A program made the translations under genes and the position numbers. From a virus (lineage: Duplodnaviria; Heunggongvirae; Uroviricota; Caudoviricetes): DNA of 17,639 nucleotides. How positions within the stretch are numbered: position 1 is the first letter of the stretch; every line of letters begins with the position of its first letter. Below, one piece after another: positions 5,960 to 17,639 of the stretch. The notes below the pieces were generated by a model. It saw nothing but the letters and a program-made list of their open reading frames with translations, did not search any database and had not been told where the DNA came from. The DNA is taken from the IMG/VR virus record IMGVR_UViG_3300029076_000068; one strand, 5' to 3'.

Positions 5960-6430
5960 TTATTTCAGGCATTGCGTCCTGATGTATTCCTGCAGGTAGT
6001 TAACCTGCGCGGTTATCTTGTCGATTCCACTTCGGAGACGGTAATAATTGAGTTCAGCATCTGCTGTAAGTCCTGGGCTTTCTCCATCGCCCATGCCGCT
6101 GGCTCCGGTCGTTGACTTTGCACAGGTGGCGGCGACTTGCAGGCGCTTACGCCCAGCAGAAACATCAGCACGGAGACTTTCGATAGTCGCGTTAGCATCA
6201 GCAAGCTCCTTTGTGTATCTTGCGTCGAGTTCTGCTACATCACGTTGACGCTTCCGCATGTCAGCGATGGTGGCGTTCGCCTTCTCCAGTTCACTGGCCT
6301 TGTTATCGCGCTGCTCTTTGTAGGCGATTGCGTTATCACGGTAATGATTAACAGCCCATGACAGGCAGACGATGATGCAGATAACCAGAGCGGAGATAAT
6401 CGCGGTTACTCTGCTAATTGTTTCCCCCAC
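5960..6430 (-). CDS. rzpD: Spanin inner-membrane subunit Rz (i-spanin)
   Basis: 156 aa; N-terminal TM ([20 protein letters not shown]) then coiled-coil-like region; similar to lambda Rz. Track start is GTG at 6428-6430, so the start codon is uncertain. Overlaps endolysin 3' end. Confidence 0.8.
6013..6204 (-). CDS. rzoD: Spanin outer-membrane lipoprotein Rz1 (o-spanin), embedded in Rz in the +1 frame
   Basis: 63 aa; signal peptide with lipobox-like LLGVSAC followed by proline-rich [12 protein letters not shown]; fully nested inside Rz. Confidence 0.7.
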
Positions 6431-6912
6431 AAACAGATTTCACGCTCAATCTCACGACGAGTCATGAGACCTTTCCATTGCTTACCGCCAGCATATGTCC
6501 AGCGACGTAGCTGATCACATGCGCCTTTGATATCGCCCTGGTTTATTTTGCGAAGAAGCGTCGATGTTCTGAAATTGCCAGCACCCACGTTGTAAACGAA
6601 TGAGTAAAGAGCGCCGCGCGTTGTTTCCGGTATATCGACTTCGATGTACGGGTTAATTTGTCTGGCGACAGTGGCAAGGTCTTTATTCAAGAGTGCTTTG
6701 CATTCTGCTTTGGTATACGTTTTACCGAGCATGATGTCTTTTCCTGTATGCCCGTGACATACAGTCCATACACCAACAATATCTTTGTATGGTATGTAGC
6801 TGACACCTTCCAGACCATCGTTACCACTTGGGCCAGTGATTAACACTGATGCTATAGCAATTGCTCCGCCACCAATAGCAGCAGCAACGGCTTTTCGTAA
6901 TGATGGAGGCAT
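6406..6912 (-). CDS. rrrD: SAR endolysin (phage 21 R-type lysozyme)
   Basis: 168 aa; N-terminal Gly/Ala-rich signal-anchor-release segment [17 protein letters not shown]; rest resembles P21 / DLP12 lysozyme as recalled. Confidence 0.9.
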
Positions 6913-7127
6913 TATTCACCTCTCGCAGCCTTGCGCTTATCTTCTTTAATCTTGAAATAAAGGTTTGTCAGGTACGTCAGCAGGCCAAATACCAGGCTAC
7001 CCAGCACACCTATTGCTGCCCACTGTGAGGGCGTGACTTTATCGAGCAGCTGTAAAAACCAGTAACCGGCACTACCTGCTGAGGTGCCATAGGCGACACC
7101 CGTTGTTAACTTATCCATGGATTTCAT
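6912..7127 (-). CDS. essD: Pinholin (phage 21 S-type holin) with dual-start motif
   Basis: 71 aa, [31 protein letters not shown]...; two TM segments; Met1-Lys-Ser-Met4 dual start typical of antiholin/holin pairs. Confidence 0.9.
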
Positions 7128-7237
7128 AACCCCACCTCGCAGACAAAGCGGGTGTAAATTGAGGGAATACTACGAAACGTAACAGACTCGGAGTCAGTGA
7201 ATAACTCAGGTATTGGGTTATCAGCTAATATCGAGAC

Positions 7238-7272
7238 TCAAAAAATGGAAAAACCCGCTCGACGGCGGGTTT
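7238..7272 (-). terminator. Candidate intrinsic terminator, minus-strand oriented, upstream of the holin
   Basis: Stem AAACCCGC (7251-7258) / GCGGGTTT (7265-7272), loop TCGACG. On the minus strand the hairpin is followed by TTTTTCCATTTTTT. Confidence 0.45.
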
Positions 7273-7610
7273 AAGCTGTGTGACGAAGTAACCACTCTTA
7301 ACAGCATAACCAATTTTTTACGTACGTAAACCACAAAATGATATTTGCGAGAATGCTACCGAGTATTGAAAACACCACTACAAATACATAAGCAAATCTC
7401 AACAAATAACCAACAAATAATTTCCAGTGTTATTTTCAGCCGATTTAAATTGAACCTTCAAATTACAGAGCACTTATAAATAACAGCCGTTAATATAAAT
7501 TGGCTAATAGATTTATTTTTATTCAGCCAAGAGCCATGAATAGGATTCGATAGAAAAAAGTTCAGATAAAAATAGAGATCTACTTCACAAATCAAACGAG
7601 AAACCAAAAC

Positions 7611-7624
7611 TTACATCTTGAAAT
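7611..7624 (+). promoter_or_regulatory. OmpR-box-like element upstream of the porin gene (speculative)
   Basis: TTACATCTTGAAAT resembles the ompC C1 OmpR site TTACATTTTGAAAC as recalled; about 80 bp upstream of the porin ATG. Confidence 0.25.
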
Positions 7625-7700
7625 AATCACATTGATTAGATGAATATTTATCGCGCAGTGACATCATTTTTTAATAATAGTTCAAAAAAAAGGGCTCACG

Positions 7701-8798
7701 ATGAAAAAATTAACAGTGGCAATTTCTGCTGTAGCTGCATCAGTACTGATGGCGATGTCTGCTCAGGCAGCTGAAATTTATAATAAAGACAGTAACAAGC
7801 TGGATCTGTACGGGAAAGTTAATGCTAAGCACTACTTCTCCTCTAATGATGCAGATGATGGTGATACTACTTATGCCCGTCTTGGCTTCAAAGGTGAAAC
7901 CCAAATCAACGATCAACTGACTGGTTTCGGTCAGTGGGAATATGAATTCAAAGGCAACCGCGCTGAATCTCAAGGTTCCTCCAAAGACAAAACCCGTCTT
8001 GCATTTGCAGGCCTGAAATTCGGTGACTACGGCTCAATCGATTACGGCCGTAACTACGGTGTAGCATACGACATCGGTGCGTGGACTGACGTTCTGCCAG
8101 AATTCGGTGGCGATACCTGGACCCAAACAGATGTGTTCATGACTGGTCGCACCACTGGTGTTGCAACCTATCGTAACAACGACTTCTTTGGTCTGGTTGA
8201 TGGTCTGAACTTTGCTGCTCAGTACCAAGGCAAAAACGATCGTAGCGATTTCGATAACTACACTGAAGGTAACGGTGATGGCTTCGGTTTCTCTGCTACC
8301 TATGAATACGAAGGATTCGGTATCGGTGCAACTTATGCGAAATCTGATCGTACCGACACTCAAGTTAATGCAGGGAAAGTTCTTCCTGAAGTATTTGCTT
8401 CCGGTAAAAATGCAGAAGTTTGGGCCGCAGGTCTGAAATATGACGCTAACAACATTTACCTGGCCACTACCTATTCTGAAACCCAGAATATGACTGTATT
8501 TGCTGATCACTTCGTTGCTAATAAAGCCCAAAACTTCGAAGCTGTTGCACAATATCAGTTCGATTTCGGTCTGCGTCCGTCCGTTGCTTACCTGCAATCT
8601 AAAGGTAAGGATCTTGGAGTATGGGGCGATCAGGACTTAGTCAAATATGTTGATGTAGGTGCAACCTATTACTTCAACAAAAATATGTCTACTTTCGTTG
8701 ATTACAAAATCAACCTGCTTGACAAAAATGACTTCACTAAAGCACTCGGTGTAAGCACTGATGACATCGTTGCTGTAGGTCTGGTTTACCAGTTCTAA
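7701..8798 (+). CDS. nmpC: OmpC-family general porin (NmpC/OmpD-like), intact, antisense to the late operon
   Basis: 365 aa; signal peptide [23 protein letters not shown] then [17 protein letters not shown]...; C-terminal ...VGLVYQF beta-barrel motif; SD AAGGG upstream. Confidence 0.9.
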
Positions 8799-8987: not shown

Positions 8988-9371
8988 TTAATTAGAGTTA
9001 TTAACAACGATATCCATCTCTAACCGGATATCTAATGCCATTAACATCCCTTCAATTATGCCCTCAGCCTTCTGTAACCTTTTCCCGATATAACCATCAG
9101 AGCAGCAATGCTTACCTGCCAGTGACATGAATGTCATACCGACTACATAATAATCTACTAATAAATCGTGCAAATCGCTGTTGTTCTTTTTCAGACGGGC
9201 CATGCACCCGCAAATGATCATCGCGTCATCGTCACAACATTGCGGGCGAGATTTTACTTTTGAAGTAATTAATCCCTTAAAACCGGCGGCAATGGACGAC
9301 CAGGTCACATCTTCATGATTATTAGCCGCCCACGCTCCCCAACGCTCAAGAACCATCTGAATATCACGCAT
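8988..9371 (-). CDS. quuD: Late-gene antiterminator Q (phage 82 / DLP12 QuuD type)
   Basis: 127 aa from ATG at 9369-9371, [24 protein letters not shown]... with Cys-rich zinc-binding region [13 protein letters not shown]. The track ORF begins at an upstream TTG (9386). Confidence 0.85.
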
Positions 9372-9456: not shown

Positions 9457-9579
9457 TCATACTCCTGCTCCTGTCAGGGTTTTGGCGTAATTCTTCAGTA
9501 TTCGGTAATCGGTCAAAACAGAACCGGGGAAACGATATAAGCGCAGACGCCCCCAGCGGTGGCGAAGAAGTTCTGCCAT
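9457..9579 (-). CDS. ylcG: Small YlcG-like ORF (40 aa)
   Basis: Hand-translated: MAELLRHRWGRLRLYRFPGSVLTDYRILKNYAKTLTGAGV*. Sits between rusA and Q as ylcG does in DLP12; below the ORF-track size cutoff. Confidence 0.5.
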   Translation of the reverse strand: MAELLRHRWGRLRLYRFPGSVLTDYRILKNYAKTLTGAGV

Positions 9580-9593
9580 ATTAAACTCAAACA

Positions 9594-9956
9594 TCATTCA
9601 TTCCCCATTTCGGTGATGGTCAGTTCCAGCCTCCCACCTTTGGTAACAGGCATCTTCACAACGCGGTAATCAACGACCTGAGCATCATCCAGCCAGAAAC
9701 CTGCTTTAGTGAGTGCGTCAAAAGCGGCTTTTTGCAGATTATCCAGGTCACGGCGACGGCGATCCGGCATGTGGCACTCAATGCGGATTTTCACAGGCAT
9801 AGCCAGGCCGATATCCAGCATTGCGTTTTTAATGATTCGGGCGACGTTATCGCGGTATGCCTGCCCCTCTGCGCTGATGTGCGTGCGCCCGCGATTATGG
9901 CGGTAATAGCGATTATTGCTCGGAGGCCAGGGTAATGTGATGCTGTAGGTATTCAC
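9594..9956 (-). CDS. rusA: Holliday junction resolvase RusA
   Basis: 120 aa, [38 protein letters not shown]...; GTG start at 9954-9956. Confidence 0.9.
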
Positions 9957-9959
9957 GCC

Positions 9960-10073
9960 TTAATAACCCCCTCTTTCAGCCAGATAGACGGCCTGCTGTG
10001 AAACTTCGCAGGCAGCGCCTAGTTTCTTTTGTGAACCAACGATATTGATCGCTGTTTTGATGGCTGGGTTCAT
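9960..10073 (-). pseudogene. Truncated Cro/YdaS-family HTH ORF (37 aa), divergent from cI
   Basis: Hand-translated: MNPAIKTAINIVGSQKKLGAACEVSQQAVYLAERGGY*; carries only the HTH segment. Its stop is in frame with, and one codon upstream of, the rusA GTG start. Confidence 0.45.
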
Positions 10074-10177
10074 AACAACCTCCGTGGTTAATTTGAATCA
10101 AGATTAAAACTATGGTTTTTTTTAGTCAACAACCATTTTCGTTTGATGAAATAAAACCTTGGTTGTACATTTGGACT
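10074..10177. promoter_or_regulatory. Divergent cI/cro-like promoter-operator region (oR-like)
   Basis: Inverted ACAACCA (10129-10135) / TGGTTGT (10160-10166) plus near-palindrome TTGAATCAA (10093-10101); lies between divergent repressor and cro-like starts. The same ACAACCA motif recurs at 12578-12584. Confidence 0.4.
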
Positions 10178-10867
10178 ATGAAAACAACACTCTCAGAAAG
10201 ACTTAAAGAAGCCAGATTAGCGCGAGGCCTTACACAAAAGGCGCTTGGGGATTTGGTCGGGGTTAGCCAAGCAGCTATTCAGAAAATCGAAACAGGGAAA
10301 GCTAACCAAACAACTAAAATCGTGGAGATCGCGAACGCTTTGGGTGTGCGCGCAGAATGGTTATCTTCTGGCGTTGGAAATATGTCAGACAGTACAGTGC
10401 AACCAATACAAACAACTGTCAGCCATTCCAAATACTTTAAGATTGACGTTCTTGATATCGAAGTGAGTGCCGGGCCGGGAGTCATCAACCGTGAGTTTGT
10501 AGAAGTTCTACGTTCGGTTGAGTATTCGTTTGACGATGCTCGTCACATGTTCGATGGCAGGAAGGCGGAAAATATCCGTATCATTAACGTACGCGGTGAC
10601 AGCATGTCAGGAACGATCGAACCAGGTGATCTGCTGTTCGTTGATATCACTGTTAAATCTTTCGACGGTGATGGTATCTATGCGTTTCTGTACGACGACA
10701 CAGCCCATGTAAAGCGCCTGCAAATGATGAAGGATAAACTGCTGGTTATCTCTGATAACAAGAGCTACTCACCGTGGGACCCAATCGAGAAAGACGAGAT
10801 GAACCGGGTATTCATCTTCGGGAAAGTCATCGGGAGCATGCCGCAGACGTATAGGAAGCATGGATAA
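10178..10867 (+). CDS. CI-type prophage repressor (HTH_XRE N-domain + LexA/S24 autopeptidase C-domain)
   Basis: MKTTLSERLKEARLARGLTQKALGDLVGVSQAAIQKIE (HTH); Ala-Gly cleavage site in EVSAGPGV; Ser nucleophile in VRGDSMSGTIEPGDLLFVD; Lys in HVKRL. The track ORF starts at 10112; an HTH at the N-terminus favours 10178. Confidence 0.85.
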   Translation: MKTTLSERLKEARLARGLTQKALGDLVGVSQAAIQKIETGKANQTTKIVEIANALGVRAEWLSSGVGNMSDSTVQPIQTTVSHSKYFKIDVLDIEVSAGPGVINREFVEVLRSVEYSFDDARHMFDGRKAENIRIINVRGDSMSGTIEPGDLLFVDITVKSFDGDGIYAFLYDDTAHVKRLQMMKDKLLVISDNKSYSPWDPIEKDEMNRVFIFGKVIGSMPQTYRKHG

Positions 10868-10962: not shown

Positions 10963-11688
10963 ATGGAAGAACGTGGGAATTACCTAATAGACCCCCTAGA
11001 AGTAATTGGTTCTGGCGGTTTTGGCCTTGTAGAAAAAATAAGGTTATATAACTCACAAAGAAAAATTTGTGGTCTATATGCCAGAAAAATTTTACGACCT
11101 GATGCAACAGATCCTGAACTCTTTACCAGATTTGAACGAGAAGTAAGATATCAAACTGAATGCCTGCATACTAATATTGTCCAAATATTCATATGCCACT
11201 TACAGAATGCTCAGCCTTGGTTCGTAATGGAACTAGCAGAAACAAATCTTGAAGAAGAAATAAAAAGTGGAACTCTTACAAAGGCTGAAAAAATCTCTAT
11301 TGTAAAAATGGTACTAAATGCCGTCGGATGGATTCATAAGAAAGGATATCTTCATCGGGATATAAAACCACTAAATGTACTAAAATTTAAAGATGGAATT
11401 TATAAGTTATCTGACTTCGGCCTTGCAAAAAATGTGTCACCAGATGCCAATACACAGCTATTAACACAAATTGGCCAATACCCCGCTACTCCTAAATACT
11501 TTGATTACAACGTTTTCCTCAACGGATATTCAAAACAATCAGATATATATTCAATTGGTATTTTAATTGAAGAATTAAATATTGATGGTTTTGATGATAT
11601 AATAAACAAATGTACGCATAGACAACTTAACAAAAGATTCCTGACCGTAGAGCAGATCTTTGAGGAATTGGAGTTGAAACGCTTATGA
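10963..11688 (+). CDS. Hanks-type (eukaryotic-like) Ser/Thr protein kinase, minimal kinase domain
   Basis: 241 aa; Gly-rich loop GSGGFGLV, Lys in LYARKIL, catalytic loop HRDIKPLN, DFG in LSDFGLAK, subdomain IX SDIYSIG. SD AAAGGA upstream. About 35-40% GC by eye. Confidence 0.85.
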   Translation: MEERGNYLIDPLEVIGSGGFGLVEKIRLYNSQRKICGLYARKILRPDATDPELFTRFEREVRYQTECLHTNIVQIFICHLQNAQPWFVMELAETNLEEEIKSGTLTKAEKISIVKMVLNAVGWIHKKGYLHRDIKPLNVLKFKDGIYKLSDFGLAKNVSPDANTQLLTQIGQYPATPKYFDYNVFLNGYSKQSDIYSIGILIEELNIDGFDDIINKCTHRQLNKRFLTVEQIFEELELKRL

Positions 11689-12428
11689 TTAGCATACTCT
11701 CATCATCCATATTTTCTGTACCAAAACATAATGGCAGGGAAAATCAAGATAGCGTGCTTTATCCACTTCAAACACCAAATGGTTATCTTATGGCTATAGC
11801 TGATGGGGTTGGTGGTTATAAAGGAGGAAAAGAAGCATCTGCAGCAGTAATAAATCATTTGTATAGTATTAAAGACAGCTTCACTCATGAAGACAATGTC
11901 TTATCCTTACTTAAGACCCTACAAGAAAAGGTGGCATCTCTTTCGTCAGTTGATAAAGAATTAGCATCTGCTGCTACAACTTTAACAATGTGCCTACTTC
12001 ACAATCAAGGTCTAACAATTATACATGTAGGTGACTGTCGTGTTTATTTAAAAAATGGAAATAAGCTAATCCAATTAACAACAGATCATACTCAACATCA
12101 AATGTTGATAGATAGCGGTATTTATACAGCTCGACAGCTCAAAAATGCAAAAGGTAAAAATATTATTACAACTGCACTTGCTGCCAAGATCCCTCTTCAA
12201 CATCAAGTCATAAATATTGATAAAGATGAACTTCCTCTTGACGATGGTGTTCTATCTCTATTCATCATGTCTGATGGCGCGCATACCTTTTGGGAGCAAC
12301 GCCCACGATTTTCTTACCGTACATTGTCAACCGCATCAAGGTTTGCCTCCAGCCTAATGCGAAGAATAGAGACAAAAGGCCCGACTGACGATTATTCTCT
12401 TATAGCGGTAAATGTAAAGTATTTGTAA
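11685..12428 (+). CDS. PP2C-family (PPM) Ser/Thr protein phosphatase
   Basis: 247 aa; metal-binding motif AIADGVGGYKGGKEAS, then HVGDCRVYL, TTDHT and C-terminal MSDGA. Start ATG overlaps the kinase stop (ATGA at 11685-11688). Confidence 0.85.
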   Translation: MISILSSSIFSVPKHNGRENQDSVLYPLQTPNGYLMAIADGVGGYKGGKEASAAVINHLYSIKDSFTHEDNVLSLLKTLQEKVASLSSVDKELASAATTLTMCLLHNQGLTIIHVGDCRVYLKNGNKLIQLTTDHTQHQMLIDSGIYTARQLKNAKGKNIITTALAAKIPLQHQVINIDKDELPLDDGVLSLFIMSDGAHTFWEQRPRFSYRTLSTASRFASSLMRRIETKGPTDDYSLIAVNVKYL

Positions 12429-12574: not shown

Positions 12575-12640
12575 AAAACAACCAATAAAACAACTTTTGT
12601 TGTTGACGATAAAACAACTATAGTTTTAAATAAATTCATC
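12575..12640 (+). promoter_or_regulatory. pL/oL-like promoter-operator candidate
   Basis: -35 TTGACG (12603-12608), 17-nt spacer, -10-like TTAAAT (12626-12631). Overlaps palindrome ACAACTTTTGTTGT (12590-12603) and repeated ACAAC(CA) motifs shared with the oR-like region. Confidence 0.35.
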
Positions 12641-12824
12641 GCAACAACACAACGATACGGCAACCACCTGATTCACCGTTGCGATGACCGCTTAGATCCG
12701 CAGCTTGAATTTCAGCAGGCTTCGGGAAGTGCGAGGGGTGAAGCGGACGCGTGAACGTCGGTGTGACCAGCTGAAATCAACTCAACACTTCATACCTCAG
12801 TCGCTTCAACGAGGCGGCTTAGTT

Positions 12825-13115
12825 ATGACAACCGGCGGCCATCCACCGCCTGAATACGCGCAGAAGTCTTTATATGTTCAGCAGCCCAGCTTACGGGCAG
12901 GAGTTTTTATGGTTCATCAACATTACGGAACGCAGACCGTTAATCGCGGTGCGGTCATGCCAGGAATGCTGGTCAAACACAAAGATGGTACCTGGACTGC
13001 ATCAGCTAATTTATGCGGACGGCTATATCTGCATCGCGGCATCGAGCGCACTTATACCCGTGATTTGCTCGTGGAAGTTTTTCTCGACGGACGAGGCAAC
13101 GGCCTGAATCACTAA
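12825..13115 (+). CDS. Hypothetical protein (non-lambda segment upstream of gam)
   Basis: 96 aa from ATG 12825 (MTTGGHPPPEYAQKSLYVQQ...), with GAGG 10-13 nt upstream. The track ORF extends to a TTG at 12705. No family recognised. Confidence 0.35.
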   Translation: MTTGGHPPPEYAQKSLYVQQPSLRAGVFMVHQHYGTQTVNRGAVMPGMLVKHKDGTWTASANLCGRLYLHRGIERTYTRDLLVEVFLDGRGNGLNH

Positions 13116-15374: not shown

Positions 15375-15596
15375 ATGACACCTCAGCAAGAAAACGCCCT
15401 TCGCAGTATTGCCCGTCAGGCTAATTCTGAAATCAAAAAAGCCAGACAGCAGTTTCCNNNNNNNNNNNNNNNNNNNNNNNNNNNNNNNNNNNNNNNNNNN
15501 NNNNNNNNNNNNNNNNNNNTAACGCTGATGGGATTCACACCGACTCATTTAAGCCTGGCGATCGGCATGTTAAACGGCGTCTTTAAGGAACGGTGA
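15375..15596 (+). CDS. Lambda b-region small protein (orf61-like), interrupted by an N run
   Basis: MTPQQENALRSIARQANSEIKKARQQF, then 62 N, then TLMGFTPTHLSLAIGMLNGVFKER*. Frame and length across the gap cannot be verified. Confidence 0.4.
   Translation: MTPQQENALRSIARQANSEIKKARQQFXXXXXXXXXXXXXXXXXXXXXXTLMGFTPTHLSLAIGMLNGVFKER
15458..15519. other. Run of 62 ambiguous bases (N): assembly gap or masked segment
   Basis: Directly visible in the sequence. Confidence 0.99.
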
Positions 15597-15694
15597 GCAT
15601 GAAAAACAATATCATCATGGAGCTACAGGCTCCTTTTTTATTATTCGCATTCACCCTCAAGCGTATTAACCAACAATTCAGGGATTAATGAAAG

Positions 15695-15916
15695 ATGGCA
15701 GACATCATTGATTCAGCATCAGAAATTGAAGAATTACAGCGCAACACAGCAATAAAAATGCGCCGCCTGAACCACCAGGCTATATCTGCCACTCATTGTT
15801 GTGAGTGTGGCGATCCGATAGATGAACGAAGACGCTTGGCCGTTCAGGGTTGTCGGACTTGTGCAAGTTGCCAGGAGGATCTGGAACTTATCAGTAAACA
15901 GAGAGGTTCGAAGTGA
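15695..15916 (+). CDS. TraR/DksA-family C4 zinc-finger protein (lambda Orf73-like)
   Basis: 73 aa; CCECGDPIDERRRLAVQGCRTCASCQ four-Cys zinc finger typical of TraR/DksA C-terminus. Confidence 0.8.
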   Translation: MADIIDSASEIEELQRNTAIKMRRLNHQAISATHCCECGDPIDERRRLAVQGCRTCASCQEDLELISKQRGSK

Positions 15917-16126
15917 GCGAAATTAACTAGAAGCCAAAGATAAAATCATCGCTGAGCAGGAGAAAATCGCTAACGGAGAAAAGACAGTAAGTCAGTATAT
16001 GAAAACCGCATGATATCATCAGATAAAAATCGATCGTAAAGCGAAATATTAATACCAGAATAAACGAGTCGAGGTAAATTATATTACCTCGATAAATTAA
16101 CTAAAACTTGCCCGCTATATACTATC

Positions 16127-16729
16127 TCATTCAGTATCATCACGCGCGGTCTGTGTATATGTTACTACCGCACCTAATGTATTAATTTTCTTTTCAACAT
16201 AGATAATATTATCGTACTCATAATTGCCATACGGATAGCAAATGCGAATATTCTCATGTAGATCGGGGTCATCCACCTCAGCTCCAGAACAACTTTTTGA
16301 ACTACCGGAAGTATACCGATACGGTGCAACATAAGACGATGTCTCTCCAGGCAAAAAATAAGTTAGTGTTGTAAGGGGTATAATCAGAAAAAATCCAGCA
16401 AATATGCACATTCCTGCATAAACCTTAAGGTATGCTGACAGACTCTTCCAGCCGCTTTGTTTTACTATCCCCTTCTTAACCCAAAACAGAGATAACAGAA
16501 AAGCTATTCCCATGCTAAACAGAATGTAATAGTGGGATATACTCTGATTAAGAAACGTGACCCTGTAAATATCTGCCCGCCACCAGAAGAAAAGGAAAAT
16601 AAAGATCAGGCCTGAAACTGTCATGCAAATCAAATAAGGATACGAATCTTTTTTCATGTTTAGCGCCCATAAAATTTTTCCTGCCCCGGACAAATTTACC
16701 ATCCATTTTCTGCGCAGAAAATAGCTCAT
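16127..16729 (-). CDS. Hypothetical integral membrane protein (AT-rich moron)
   Basis: 200 aa; three to four hydrophobic helices (YLICMTVSGLIFIFLFFWW, YYILFSMGIAFLLSLFWV, VYAGMCIFAGFFLIIPLTTLTYFL) plus a ~80-aa Cys/Tyr-containing soluble C-terminus. Start ambiguous among Met1, Met10 and Met25. Confidence 0.55.
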   Translation of the reverse strand: MSYFLRRKWMVNLSGAGKILWALNMKKDSYPYLICMTVSGLIFIFLFFWWRADIYRVTFLNQSISHYYILFSMGIAFLLSLFWVKKGIVKQSGWKSLSAYLKVYAGMCIFAGFFLIIPLTTLTYFLPGETSSYVAPYRYTSGSSKSCSGAEVDDPDLHENIRICYPYGNYEYDNIIYVEKKINTLGAVVTYTQTARDDTE

Positions 16730-16971
16730 TACTTACTGCACAATAATACACAAAATTGCGTAAATTTTTTGCATGGATTTTAGCTCTTTCAGCCGACGTT
16801 TAAGGGGTAAATAGCATTTCCTAAAAGCAACTGCACCAACCCAACAGAATGAACTACCGCTTACGTTGAGAGCAAAAAAGTGTATAGCAGCAATGAACAG
16901 CATCCTCGCACTGACGGGGATTTCTTTTATCTGAGCTAGCTACGGCGAGTTTTGTTTTATGGAGACAAGAA

Positions 16972-17316
16972 ATGTCAGATTTGGCTATGAAGGTTTTGAA
17001 ATGGCAATCAACTGGCGATGTCGGCATCAGTAGCGCAACTCTTGCCTCAATCGCATGTGGCCTGAAAAAGAATATCTATGGTCATCACTTCGGCGCTCCC
17101 CATGACGCAGCAGACTTTCGGCGATGCGTTGCACTTGTTGAGCAGATTCCAGAAATCAGAGATTCATTCAACAAGGTTGCAAAGCGCGTTCCGGCATTCA
17201 AAGGAATCCTCAACGAATGGGATTCACTCGTTGCTCTGTTGAAGTCTGAAATGAAGACGTACGGGAACAAAGCACCAGAGACTTACAGAAGAATCAGCGA
17301 GCTACGCAAGGACTAA
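16972..17316 (+). CDS. Hypothetical protein
   Basis: 114 aa ORF with a good SD (GGAGACAAGAA-ATG); no family recognised. Confidence 0.5.
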   Translation: MSDLAMKVLKWQSTGDVGISSATLASIACGLKKNIYGHHFGAPHDAADFRRCVALVEQIPEIRDSFNKVAKRVPAFKGILNEWDSLVALLKSEMKTYGNKAPETYRRISELRKD

Positions 17317-17438
17317 CCCGCCTCACACTCGATGAGGCCTGTTCATTTCTCAAGATATCCAGACCTACCATTGCTGCATCAATGCGGCTTTTTATTGCCT
17401 GATTTGCAGGTTCGATTCCATATTCGGAGATAGCACTC

Positions 17439-17639
17439 ATGCAACACGAACTACAACCTGATTCACTGGTTGATTTGAAATTCATCATGGCTGATACTGG
17501 CTTCGGTAAGACCTTCATCTATGACCGGATTAAGTCCGGCGACCTGCCTAAAGCCAAAGTTATCCACGGACGAGCAAGATGGTTATATCGTGACCATTGT
17601 GAATTCAAAAATAAGCTCTTAAGCCGCGCCAATGGGTAA
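17439..17639 (+). CDS. AlpA-family HTH protein (excisionase / prophage regulator-like)
   Basis: 66 aa; LVDLKFIMADTGFGKTFIYDRIKSGDLPKAKVIHGRARWLYRDHCEFKNKL fits the AlpA/Xis winged-HTH pattern. Stop codon is the last three bases of the window. Confidence 0.65.
   Translation: MQHELQPDSLVDLKFIMADTGFGKTFIYDRIKSGDLPKAKVIHGRARWLYRDHCEFKNKLLSRANG

What the first reader, a model, noticed from the sequence alone, without database searches (positions are those of the whole stretch)
9954..10073. Cro-like gene truncated to its HTH and abutting rusA in frame: scar of a deletion removing cII, O, P and most of the nin region
The ORF divergent from cI encodes only 37 aa (a Cro/YdaS-type HTH). Its TAA (9960-9962) is in the same frame as, and one codon upstream of, the rusA GTG start (9954-9956). 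No replication genes occur between the immunity region and rusA-ylcG-Q. The element therefore cannot replicate as a phage, yet rusA and Q sit directly under the pR-like promoter, so repressor inactivation would feed straight into Q and late genes.
Basis: partly seen in the sequence, partly recalled or inferred. Interest (0 to 1): 0.5.

Follow-up and report, generated by a model that had tools for sequence, protein, structure and literature searches.

The report
Deletion scar in a defective prophage
A lambda-like virus resting in an E. coli chromosome has lost a 5-8 kb block with its DNA-replication genes, leaving a stump of its cro switch gene fused next to rusA; this is ordinary prophage decay, except that many independent deletions in related prophages break at the same two spots in cro.

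Summary
A 37-codon ORF (9960-10073, minus strand) ends in TAA one codon before the rusA GTG, in the same frame.

The deletion reading is also correct, with a sharper map. The true junction is the TAT at 9984-9986, inside the ORF.
- Codons 1-30 are the 5' end of a 76-aa YdaS-type cro.
- The last seven codons and the stop are the 3' end of ybcO, read one base out of frame.

Intact relatives carry 5.2-7.7 kb here: cro 3' end, ydaT (cII position), O, P, ren, accessory genes, ninB, ninE and most of ybcO.

The junction is real. It recurs almost base-identically in at least 44 collection blocks, but in none of 5,426 complete E. coli genomes. No replication gene remains in the window. cI, Q and most late genes look intact.

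That derepression would run straight from pR into rusA-ylcG-Q is plausible but untested.

One thing is unexplained. Of 22 independent fusion classes of this cro, 19 break at two TAT trinucleotides, codon 30 and codon 39/40, nearly always with TA-containing microhomology.

Verdict: a routine prophage-decay scar, a new member of a known kind, with a curious breakpoint hotspot.

The parts
9960..10073 (-). Chimeric 37-codon ORF (cro stump). Codons 1-30 (10073..9984) are the cro 5' end. Codons 31-37 and the TAA (9983..9960) are the ybcO 3' end read one base out of frame.
   Evidence: ORF list. Alignment with intact Cro of L001/L002 and with ybcO. Pfam YdaS_toxin positions 1-26 of 65, 23.1 bits against a cutoff of 30.
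9984..9986 (-). Deletion junction: the 3-bp microhomology TAT shared by cro (GCCGTCTAT|AAGTGG) and ybcO (CAGGTTAT|CTGGCTG).
   Evidence: The BLAST split falls at query 915-917. Base-by-base comparison. Overlap = 3 and deletion = 5186 bp relative to L013.
9953..9983 (-). Remnant of the ybcO (DUF1364) 3' end. Its TGA (9955-9953) overlaps the rusA GTG as GTGA.
   Evidence: Identical to the end of ybcO in L002 and L013.
9594..9956 (-). rusA, Holliday-junction resolvase, 120 aa, GTG start.
   Evidence: Pfam RusA, 82 bits. Full-length match to PDB 1Q8R, E = 3e-80.
9457..9597 (-). ylcG, a small phage protein.
   Evidence: PHROG 2705. Pfam Phage_YlcG in the identical loci.
8988..9371 (-). Late-gene antiterminator Q (QuuD type), 127 aa.
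   Evidence: Pfam Phage_antitermQ positions 1-118 of 118, 179 bits. The Q-porin-holin-lysozyme block is 99.1% identical and colinear with viable phage PhiR26_1.
10074..10177 (.). Divergent control region (OR-like). Operator-like sites lie at 10153-10166 and 10106-10119. The inferred pR is TTGACT (10129-10124), 17 nt, TAATCT (10106-10101). Base 10118 is a substitution found only in the window.
   Evidence: Operator pattern search. Multi-locus alignment. Variant table. The promoter assignment is an inference from position and from the parallel pL sequence; the consensus scan did not call it.
10178..10867 (+). cI-type repressor, 229 aa: N-terminal HTH and C-terminal S24 self-cleaving peptidase domain.
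   Evidence: Pfam HTH_3 and Peptidase_S24. 99.9% DNA identity to the repressor region of the intact E. coli T2 prophage. The AG site and the GDSM and VKRL motifs were read from the translation.
7251..7272 (-). Strong intrinsic terminator upstream of the holin gene. It is the likely tR' at which Q must act.
   Evidence: Terminator scan: 8-bp stem, 5 GC pairs, T-run. Sequence.
5960..7127 (-). Lysis cassette: holin (6912-7127), lysozyme (6406-6912) and Rz. In this copy the Rz ATG and the lysozyme TGA are changed (ATGA to ATTA at 6416).
   Evidence: ORF list. Pfam in identical loci. Comparison of 6416 across copies.

Best explanation
The window holds a lambda-like prophage of E. coli at the argW/dsdC site, with a torI-type excisionase. 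It suffered one internal deletion by illegitimate recombination.

The deletion joined the TAT of cro codon 30 to a TAT 24 nt before the end of ybcO. It removed 5-8 kb:
- the rest of cro;
- the ydaT-type gene in the cII position;
- replication genes O (which holds the origin in lambda) and P;
- ren and accessory genes;
- ninB, ninE and most of ybcO.

What is left is a prophage with these properties.
- It still makes its SOS-cleavable cI repressor.
- It has no Cro: the stump lacks the end of the recognition helix and the remaining helices.
- It has no replication module.
- Its pR-like promoter is about 150 nt upstream of rusA-ylcG-Q.

Shown: the anatomy, the endpoints, the loss of the genes, and the spread of this exact allele among E. 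coli samples.

Inferred:
- the element cannot replicate or complete a lytic cycle;
- loss of O/P removes the 'replicative killing' that an induced, trapped lambda prophage inflicts;
- after cI cleavage, transcription from pR would reach Q without the terminators normally in between, as in a nin5-type deletion taken further, and could then turn on the late and lysis genes from a single-copy template.
For: The break and its flanks:
- A split BLAST gives a 3-bp overlap, with flanks 97-99.9% identical to intact relatives.
- The gene content of the missing interval is seen in three intact relatives.

The stump is not a full cro:
- It covers only 26 of 65 YdaS profile positions.
- Intact Cro aligns to the solved all-alpha Cro 3BD1 over residues 4-66.

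No replication protein appears among all window ORFs.

The same junction occurs in many independent assemblies, with only 1-3 differences per 5-11 kb.

What remains looks functional:
- The repressor region is 99.9% identical to that of an intact prophage.
- Q and the late control region are 99.1% identical to a viable phage.
- Only weak terminator-like hairpins lie between pR and Q. A strong one lies before the holin.
- An intact relative has a strong terminator inside the deleted interval.

Literature:
- Induced trapped lambda fragments carrying cro-cII-O-P kill the cell, and survivors carry insertions or deletions in O or P (PMC3640518).
- Independent deletions of the same region exist in sister prophages.
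Against: Nothing contradicts the structural claim. The functional claims have several weaknesses.
- No expression or lysis data exist.
- pR was assigned by position only. The consensus scan did not call it.
- Rho-dependent terminators cannot be predicted here.
- This copy has a private operator change at 10118 of unknown effect and has lost the Rz start codon. Lysis after induction may therefore be weaker or absent.
- The part of the prophage left of the portal gene lies outside the window. A replication gene there cannot be formally excluded, although none sits there in relatives.
- The junction could be the end product of two or three successive deletions rather than one.
Confidence: 0.85

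Rival explanations
1. The 37-aa ORF is a complete small HTH regulator in its own right, and this phage type never had replication genes between the immunity region and rusA.
For: The ORF has a good ribosome-binding site and a weak YdaS hit. The allele is stably inherited in many samples.
Against: The first 30 codons are identical to a 76-aa Cro found in 1,505 or more complete genomes. The tail is ybcO out of frame. The Pfam score is below the cutoff and covers only 26 of 65 positions. All close relatives carry ydaT-O-P downstream.
Confidence: 0.02
2. The junction is an assembly chimera that joins two prophages of one genome.
For: Lambdoid prophages share long repeats. One metagenome contig (L004) places the same core beside a different integrase.
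Against: A 3-bp overlap cannot mislead a k-mer assembler. The identical junction is recovered by different assemblers and projects: NCBI, ENA, Logan, JGI and IMG/VR.
Confidence: 0.02
3. The scar is the end product of serial nested deletions, not one event. First cro codon 39/40 joined ybcO or another site through a longer microhomology. Then the 28 nt between the two TATs of cro were lost, and/or the interval between the two TATC[C/T]GGCTG repeats inside ybcO was lost.
For: Two pairs of alleles share a right end but differ in the cro end: P0106/P0117 at ylcG and P0103/P0121 at mid-ybcO. L044 has cro codon 30 joined to mid-ybcO in the same kinase/PP2C context. The partner sites always match hotspot B at least as well as hotspot A.
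Against: No codon-39 precursor of the window junction was found. L044 differs from the window by about 3 substitutions per kb, so it is not the direct parent. The paired alleles P0103 and P0121 sit in different accessory-gene contexts.
Confidence: 0.3
4. The arrangement is a selected, domesticated module. It would be an SOS-inducible rusA (repair) and/or Q-lysis cassette kept by the host, rather than neutral decay.
For: rusA in K-12 is silent until a promoter is placed upstream (PMC1636454). Here it lies directly under a cI-controlled promoter. The allele has spread. The few differences among copies fall disproportionately in pR/OR, Q, the Q-S spacer and the lysis genes.
Against: The allele is absent from 5,426 complete genomes. 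The copies are nearly identical, so it is young or clonal. Several of the variants come from contig ends or scaffolds and may be errors. Co-expressing Q and the lysis genes would defeat a repair role.
Confidence: 0.12

Closest known systems
DLP12 cryptic prophage of E. coli K-12 (ybcN-ninE-ybcO-rusA-ylcG-quuD-nmpC-essD-rrrD-rzpD)
   Same: Same right-arm gene set and order, including the porin gene between Q and the lysis cassette. Also a defective lambdoid prophage with a quiescent rusA.
   Different: By my recollection, DLP12 has lost its immunity region but keeps ybcN-ninE-ybcO. The window keeps cI/OR and has lost cro 3' through ybcO. It sits at argW/dsdC with torI, not at argU.
Lambda nin5 deletion, which removes the terminators between P and Q and makes late expression independent of N
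   Same: A deletion upstream of Q that removes intervening terminators, so that pR transcription can reach Q. This rests on my own knowledge. Support found here: lambda nin5 grows without NusB (PMC3177189), and Costantino et al. 1990 appears in a reference list.
   Different: nin5 leaves cro, cII, O and P intact, and the phage is viable. Here the deletion starts inside cro and also takes the replication module, so the element is defective.
Replicative-killing-resistant (RK-) derivatives of trapped lambda prophages (Hayes laboratory)
   Same: Survivors of induction carry insertions or deletions that inactivate O or P (PMC3640518). This gives a selective reason for loss of the same interval.
   Different: Those were laboratory selections on cI857 fragments lacking late genes. 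Here a natural, otherwise nearly complete prophage retains Q and its late genes.
Rac prophage YdaS/YdaT (Cro- and cII-position genes; Pfam YdaS_toxin and YdaT_toxin)
   Same: The intact form of the truncated gene belongs to PF15943. Its neighbour in relatives belongs to PF06254.
   Different: Only the first 30 residues survive in the window, and ydaT is absent.

Membership tests
YdaS/Cro family (Pfam PF15943), applied to the 37-aa ORF | Full-length domain match above the curated cutoff | tested here: not met
   23.1 bits against a cutoff of 30; profile positions 1-26 of 65 only. The intact 76-aa relative scores 60.2 bits over positions 1-60.
YdaS/Cro family (Pfam PF15943), applied to the 37-aa ORF | Complete helix-turn-helix and the following helices of the all-alpha Cro fold | tested here: not met
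   Intact Cro aligns to solved Cro 3BD1 over residues 4-66. The ORF departs from it after residue 30, inside the segment QQAVYKWL.
Microhomology-mediated deletion scar in a lambdoid prophage | Both flanks colinear with one intact relative, with the intervening genes missing and a short shared sequence at the join | tested here: met
   Left flank to 9984, right flank from 9986, overlap TAT. 5,186 bp are missing relative to L013, about 6.3 kb relative to L002 and about 7.7 kb relative to L001.
Lambda-type immunity region | S24 self-cleaving repressor divergent from cro, with repeated operators in the spacer and a second operator set at pL | tested here: met
   HTH_3 plus Peptidase_S24. Operator-like repeats at 10106-10119 and 10153-10166, and at 12590-12603 and 12614-12627. 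Operator binding itself was not tested.
Lambda-type replication module (O initiator with origin, P helicase loader) | Presence of Phage_rep_O and Phage_lambda_P genes downstream of cro | tested here: not met
   Absent from the window. Present in relatives.
RusA resolvase (PF05866) | Full-length match to the solved enzyme | tested here: met
   120 of 120 residues aligned to 1Q8R, E = 3e-80. Pfam 82 bits.
nin5-type N-independent arrangement | No effective terminator between pR and Q | tested here: inconclusive
   Only two weak hairpins (9552-9539, and 9032-9009 inside Q) are predicted on the sense strand. Rho-dependent sites cannot be predicted, and no transcription data exist.
Site-specific recombination or break hotspot (considered for the recurrent cro breakpoints) | A common crossover dinucleotide or a shared recognition motif at all partner sites | tested here: not met
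   Junctions share TA or TAT but no single fixed dinucleotide position and no extended motif. Microhomology ranges from 0 to 7 nt.

The most novel reading that the evidence does not exclude
The two TAT trinucleotides of this cro gene (nt 88-90 and 116-118) may be true fragile sites. Something would repeatedly create a DNA end there, which then rejoins to TA-containing microhomologies elsewhere in the prophage. Candidates are a sequence- or structure-specific nick or break, or a protein roadblock on the conserved 27-bp block between the two sites. If so, a very common E. coli prophage family, present in 2,221 of 5,426 complete genomes, would be grounded again and again through one mechanism. 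The window's scar would be one product of it.
Probability: 0.3. Interest if true: 0.6.

Novelty: new member of a known kind. Interest (0 to 1): 0.3.

Why it matters
Taken alone, the finding is one more example of how resident prophages decay. Loss of cro and of the replication genes turns a dangerous passenger into a fixed piece of chromosome that still confers immunity.

Its practical value is mainly for annotation.
- The 37-aa 'regulator' is a pseudogene stump.
- The element should be scored as defective.

Two points reach further.
- The deletion puts rusA and the late-gene activator Q directly under an SOS-sensitive promoter. This makes a natural test case for how much late-gene expression and lysis a non-replicating prophage can give.
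- Independent deletions in this widespread immunity type end at the same two trinucleotides. If that reflects a specific break-forming process, it would be a handle on how prophage grounding actually happens in nature.

Tried and rejected
Explanations tested for the clustered cro breakpoints, and why each failed:
- **Mosaic module boundary.** In sequenced phages the homology boundary lies at the start of ydaT, not at cro codon 30.
- **Assembly artefact.** The junctions sit in long contigs from several sources, including a 4.67-Mb chromosome.
- **Serine-recombinase crossover.** There is no common dinucleotide.
- **RusA cutting 5' of CC.** This fits only some partner sites.
- **IS insertion followed by excision.** No IS end was found at the sites. 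The one IS1-related fusion joins internal IS1 sequence.
- **Type IIB, IIS or III restriction sites, Chi, IHF, dif and lambda att cores.** I compared these from memory and saw no convincing match. No tool test was made.

Searches that added nothing or came up empty:
- I looked for codon-39 precursors of the window junction and for more junction types in IMG/VR. Only other cro alleles and one more window-type copy turned up.
- The GTDB representative genomes hold no copy of the junction.
- Rfam finds nothing in the window, so the question of an N or put-type antitermination system stays open.
- The consensus promoter scan did not call pR.
- The paper on nin region mutations (PMC213295) is not held.

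Full report
**Observation**

On the minus strand a 37-codon ORF (10073..9960) ends in TAA at 9962-9960. One codon (GGC) follows, then the GTG of a 120-aa RusA ORF at 9956-9954. The ORF is divergent from a 229-aa repressor with HTH_3 and Peptidase_S24 domains at 10178-10867. Downstream of rusA lie ylcG (9597..9457) and a full-length Q antiterminator (9371..8988; Pfam positions 1-118 of 118). The description is accurate.

**Where the break is**

I ran a 1.4-kb query across the region against 5,426 complete E. coli genomes and against phage records. Every hit split in two. One part ended at window 9984 (cI plus the cro 5' end). The other started at window 9986 (rusA side). No record covered both parts.

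Three intact relatives show what belongs in between.
- Phage PhiR47_2: Cro (76 aa), cII-position gene, O, P, Ren, an SMR pump, YbcK, NinB, NinE, YbcO, then RusA.
- The QEC11-421 prophage, which sits next to torI/dsdC like the window: the same core with other accessory genes.
- The E. coli T2 prophage, whose kinase-PP2C-cI-cro segment is 99.0-99.9% identical to the window: YdaT, O, P, ren, TagO, YbcN, NinE, YbcO, RusA.

Base by base the sequences read as follows.
- cro: ...GCCGTCTAT|AAGTGG
- ybcO: ...CAGGTTAT|CTGGCTGAAAGAGGGGGTTATTAAGGCGTGA
- window: ...GCCGTCTATCTGGCTGAAAGAGGGGGTTATTAAGGCGTGA

So the join is the shared TAT at 9984-9986. The missing DNA is 5,186 bp relative to T2, about 6.3 kb relative to QEC11-421 and about 7.7 kb relative to PhiR47_2.

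The ORF tail LAERGGY* is the end of ybcO read one base out of frame. In intact phages the ybcO stop overlaps the rusA start (GTGA). The stump and rusA share a frame only because both are offset by one base from ybcO.

**The stump is not a functional or complete cro**

Intact Cro reads MNPAIKTAINIVGSQKKLGAACEVSQQAVY|KWLHNKAKVSPEH..., 76 aa in all. It scores 60 bits on PF15943 and aligns to the solved all-alpha Cro 3BD1 over residues 4-66. The stump keeps profile positions 1-26 of 65 and scores 23 bits, below the cutoff. The cut falls inside the recognition helix.

**The junction is real and inherited**

The exact 37-aa product is on record in 44 blocks of public assemblies. Nine loci were fetched from ENA metagenomes, an NCBI genome (GCA_002545595.1) and Logan runs. 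All carry the same junction and the same neighbours: kinase, PP2C, cI | stump | rusA, ylcG, Q, porin, holin. They differ from the window by 1-3 bases per 5-11 kb. JGI and IMG/VR scans found further copies.

None of the 5,426 complete genomes has the junction, nor do the GTDB representatives. It is therefore a young or clonal allele, not an artefact.

**No replication genes**

Pfam and PHROGs annotation of all sizeable ORFs gives the following set:
- portal, head-tail joining protein, terminase large and small subunits;
- small accessory genes and a KilA-N protein;
- Rz, lysozyme, holin, porin;
- Q, YlcG, RusA, the stump, cI, kinase, PP2C;
- Kil, Gam, Bet, Exo, DUF1317, DUF1382, a TraR/DksA protein, unknowns and TorI.

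Nothing resembles O, P, a helicase, a primase or an initiator.

**Likely consequences (inference)**

The repressor region is 99.9% identical to that of the intact T2 prophage. The translation shows the motifs of a self-cleaving repressor: an AG site, GDSM and VKRL.

The spacer holds operator-like repeats ACAACCA-N2-GTTTT. Matching sites lie at the leftward promoter near 12590-12627. By position, pR is TTGACT, 17 nt, TAATCT (10129-10101). The consensus scan did not call it, so this is an assignment by analogy.

Between pR and Q only two weak hairpins are predicted. A strong terminator lies just upstream of the holin gene (7272-7251), as expected for the site where Q acts. The T2 relative has a strong terminator inside the deleted interval. 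The Q-porin-holin-lysozyme block is 99.1% identical and colinear with viable phage PhiR26_1, and 98.5% with phage 434.

After cI cleavage, transcription should therefore run through the stump, rusA and ylcG into Q with less hindrance than in the parent. This resembles lambda nin5 (my own knowledge). It would happen from a single, non-replicating template and without Cro.

Loss of O/P has a documented selective rationale. Induction of a trapped lambda fragment carrying cro-cII-O-P-ren kills by runaway origin firing. Rare survivors carry insertions or deletions in O or P (PMC3640518). rusA in K-12 is silent until an IS element supplies a promoter (PMC1636454). Here a regulated promoter lies directly upstream.

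**Differences among copies of the deleted allele**

The window's only difference from L009 (7.6 kb) and L011 (5.1 kb) is C to A at 10118. This lies in the operator inside the pR spacer. In relatives that operator forms a 9-bp inverted repeat with its neighbour.

A second difference from L003-L005 is at 6416. ATGA becomes ATTA, which removes the Rz start codon and the lysozyme stop. L006 and L008 share this change.

Other copies show:
- a change of the last T of the inferred -10 (L006);
- a 2-nt loss in the Q-holin spacer (L008);
- a 1-nt loss in Q (L010, 9 nt from a contig end).

Two of eight variant sites fall in the 104-nt control region (P about 0.002). This hints at selection against pR-to-lysis expression. 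The numbers are small, and some variants may be assembly errors.

**Recurrent breakpoints (unexplained)**

This immunity type is very common. It occurs in 2,221 of 5,426 complete genomes, and 1,505 carry the intact cI-cro-ydaT segment.

A search with the intact Cro returned many truncated or fused forms. In the part of the gene where fusions can be detected (about codons 24-65), 22 distinct fusion classes were found. Nineteen of them break at two places.

*Site A, after codon 30 (DNA GTCTAT|AAG), cro 5' part retained:*
- the window type;
- a fusion to the last 72 aa of P (L014);
- a fusion to the YlcG C-terminus (L023-25; 80 blocks);
- a fusion to mid-ybcO (L044);
- one further fusion (P0120).

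*Site A, cro 3' part retained:* four reciprocal fusions (X|YKWLHN...). These come from leftward deletions reaching DUF1317, bet, int or IS1 sequence.

*Site B, after codon 39/40 (AAGGTAT|CC):* fusions to Ren, O, ydaT, three different ybcO positions, ylcG (L026-28; 125 blocks), lysozyme, portal and the tail-fibre 3' end.

Only three classes break elsewhere.

The chance of such clustering is below 1e-13, even if all five site-A, cro-5' classes are discounted as possibly derived. These two places are the only TAT trinucleotides in that part of cro. The junction microhomologies are TA, TAT, CTA, TATA, GTA, GGTA, AGGTA, TATCC, AGGTAT and AAGGTAT, with three exceptions: one class joins through AT, and two show no microhomology.

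Two further right-arm junctions in strain TUM9812 do not involve cro, and both also use TA. One of them uses the same P site as L014. Left-arm deletions in the same loci use unrelated, longer microhomologies: CATTCC, GCAAGGCTA, GCGTTA and AATTAGTTCTTTA.

Partner sites recur. ylcG GATTA|CCG and ybcO CACATAT|CCGG are each used with both cro sites. The partners always match site B at least as well as site A. Site-A junctions, including the window's, might therefore derive from site-B ones by loss of the 28 nt between the TATs. ybcO also holds an imperfect repeat TATC[C/T]GGCTG that could turn an L044-type junction into the window type. No site-B precursor of the window junction was found, and L044 is not the same clone.

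The 27-bp block between the sites is conserved in divergent cro alleles and contains an operator-like half-site. I could not identify a mechanism. The ideas I tested and set aside are listed separately.

Many short-read contigs stop at cro nt 87-93. This is what one expects when a sample holds both an intact and a truncated copy of the same immunity region.

**Verdict**

As a biological object it is a routine decay product of a lambdoid prophage: a new member of a known kind, of low to moderate interest. The point worth following up is the site-specific clustering of independent deletions in this cro gene.

Noticed in passing
window 10118 (within 10106-10119): C to A on the cro strand, in the operator that lies in the pR spacer. 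It is found only in the window, among 11 deletion-bearing copies and all intact relatives. It is the only difference from L009 and L011. Its effect on repressor binding is unknown.
   Followed up: partly
window 6416: ATGA to ATTA removes the Rz start codon and the lysozyme stop, giving a lysozyme of 168 instead of 165 aa. L006 and L008 share the change. L003-L005 and intact relatives have ATGA.
   Followed up: partly
cro nt 88-90 and 116-118 (window 9984-9986 is the first; the second is deleted here); loci L012, L014, L023-L031, L040-L046: 19 of 22 independent fusion or truncation classes of this cro break at its two TAT trinucleotides. Nearly all have TA-containing microhomology, and deletions run in both directions from the first site. 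No mechanism was identified.
   Followed up: partly
window 10963-12428: A eukaryote-type Ser/Thr kinase and a PP2C phosphatase sit between cI and pL, in the position of lambda rexAB. Other copies of the same immunity region carry GevAT, HipA_2+DUF3037, DUF7946/7947 or a BamE-like gene there.
   Followed up: no
window 12585-12910: pL-like promoter with two operator-like sites. There is no N-sized ORF before kil. The 190-nt leader folds only slightly better than shuffles (z = -1.9) and matches no Rfam family. How early antitermination works in this phage group is therefore open.
   Followed up: partly
L015 and L016, cro codon 32: Two different nonsense mutations of the same codon (TGG to TAG and TGG to TGA) in otherwise intact prophages. 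This shows that cro is inactivated repeatedly by several routes.
   Followed up: no
L004 versus L003/L007 and window 15520-17639: The same deleted core lies next to a DLP12-type integrase and fimZ in one MEGAHIT contig, but next to torI/dsdC in the others. This is either a chimeric metagenome contig or recombination between prophages at argU and argW.
   Followed up: no
contig ends in L017-L022 and cluster members P0002-P0004: Hundreds of short-read contigs stop at cro nt 87-93. This fits samples or genomes that hold both an intact and a truncated copy of the same immunity region (homoimmune double lysogens or mixed populations).
   Followed up: partly
window 7701-8798 and 7128-7700: An OmpC/NmpC-type porin gene sits in the opposite orientation between Q and the holin. 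It is followed by a 570-nt AT-rich spacer with a strong terminator. Phage 434 and the PhiR phages have the same arrangement.
   Followed up: no
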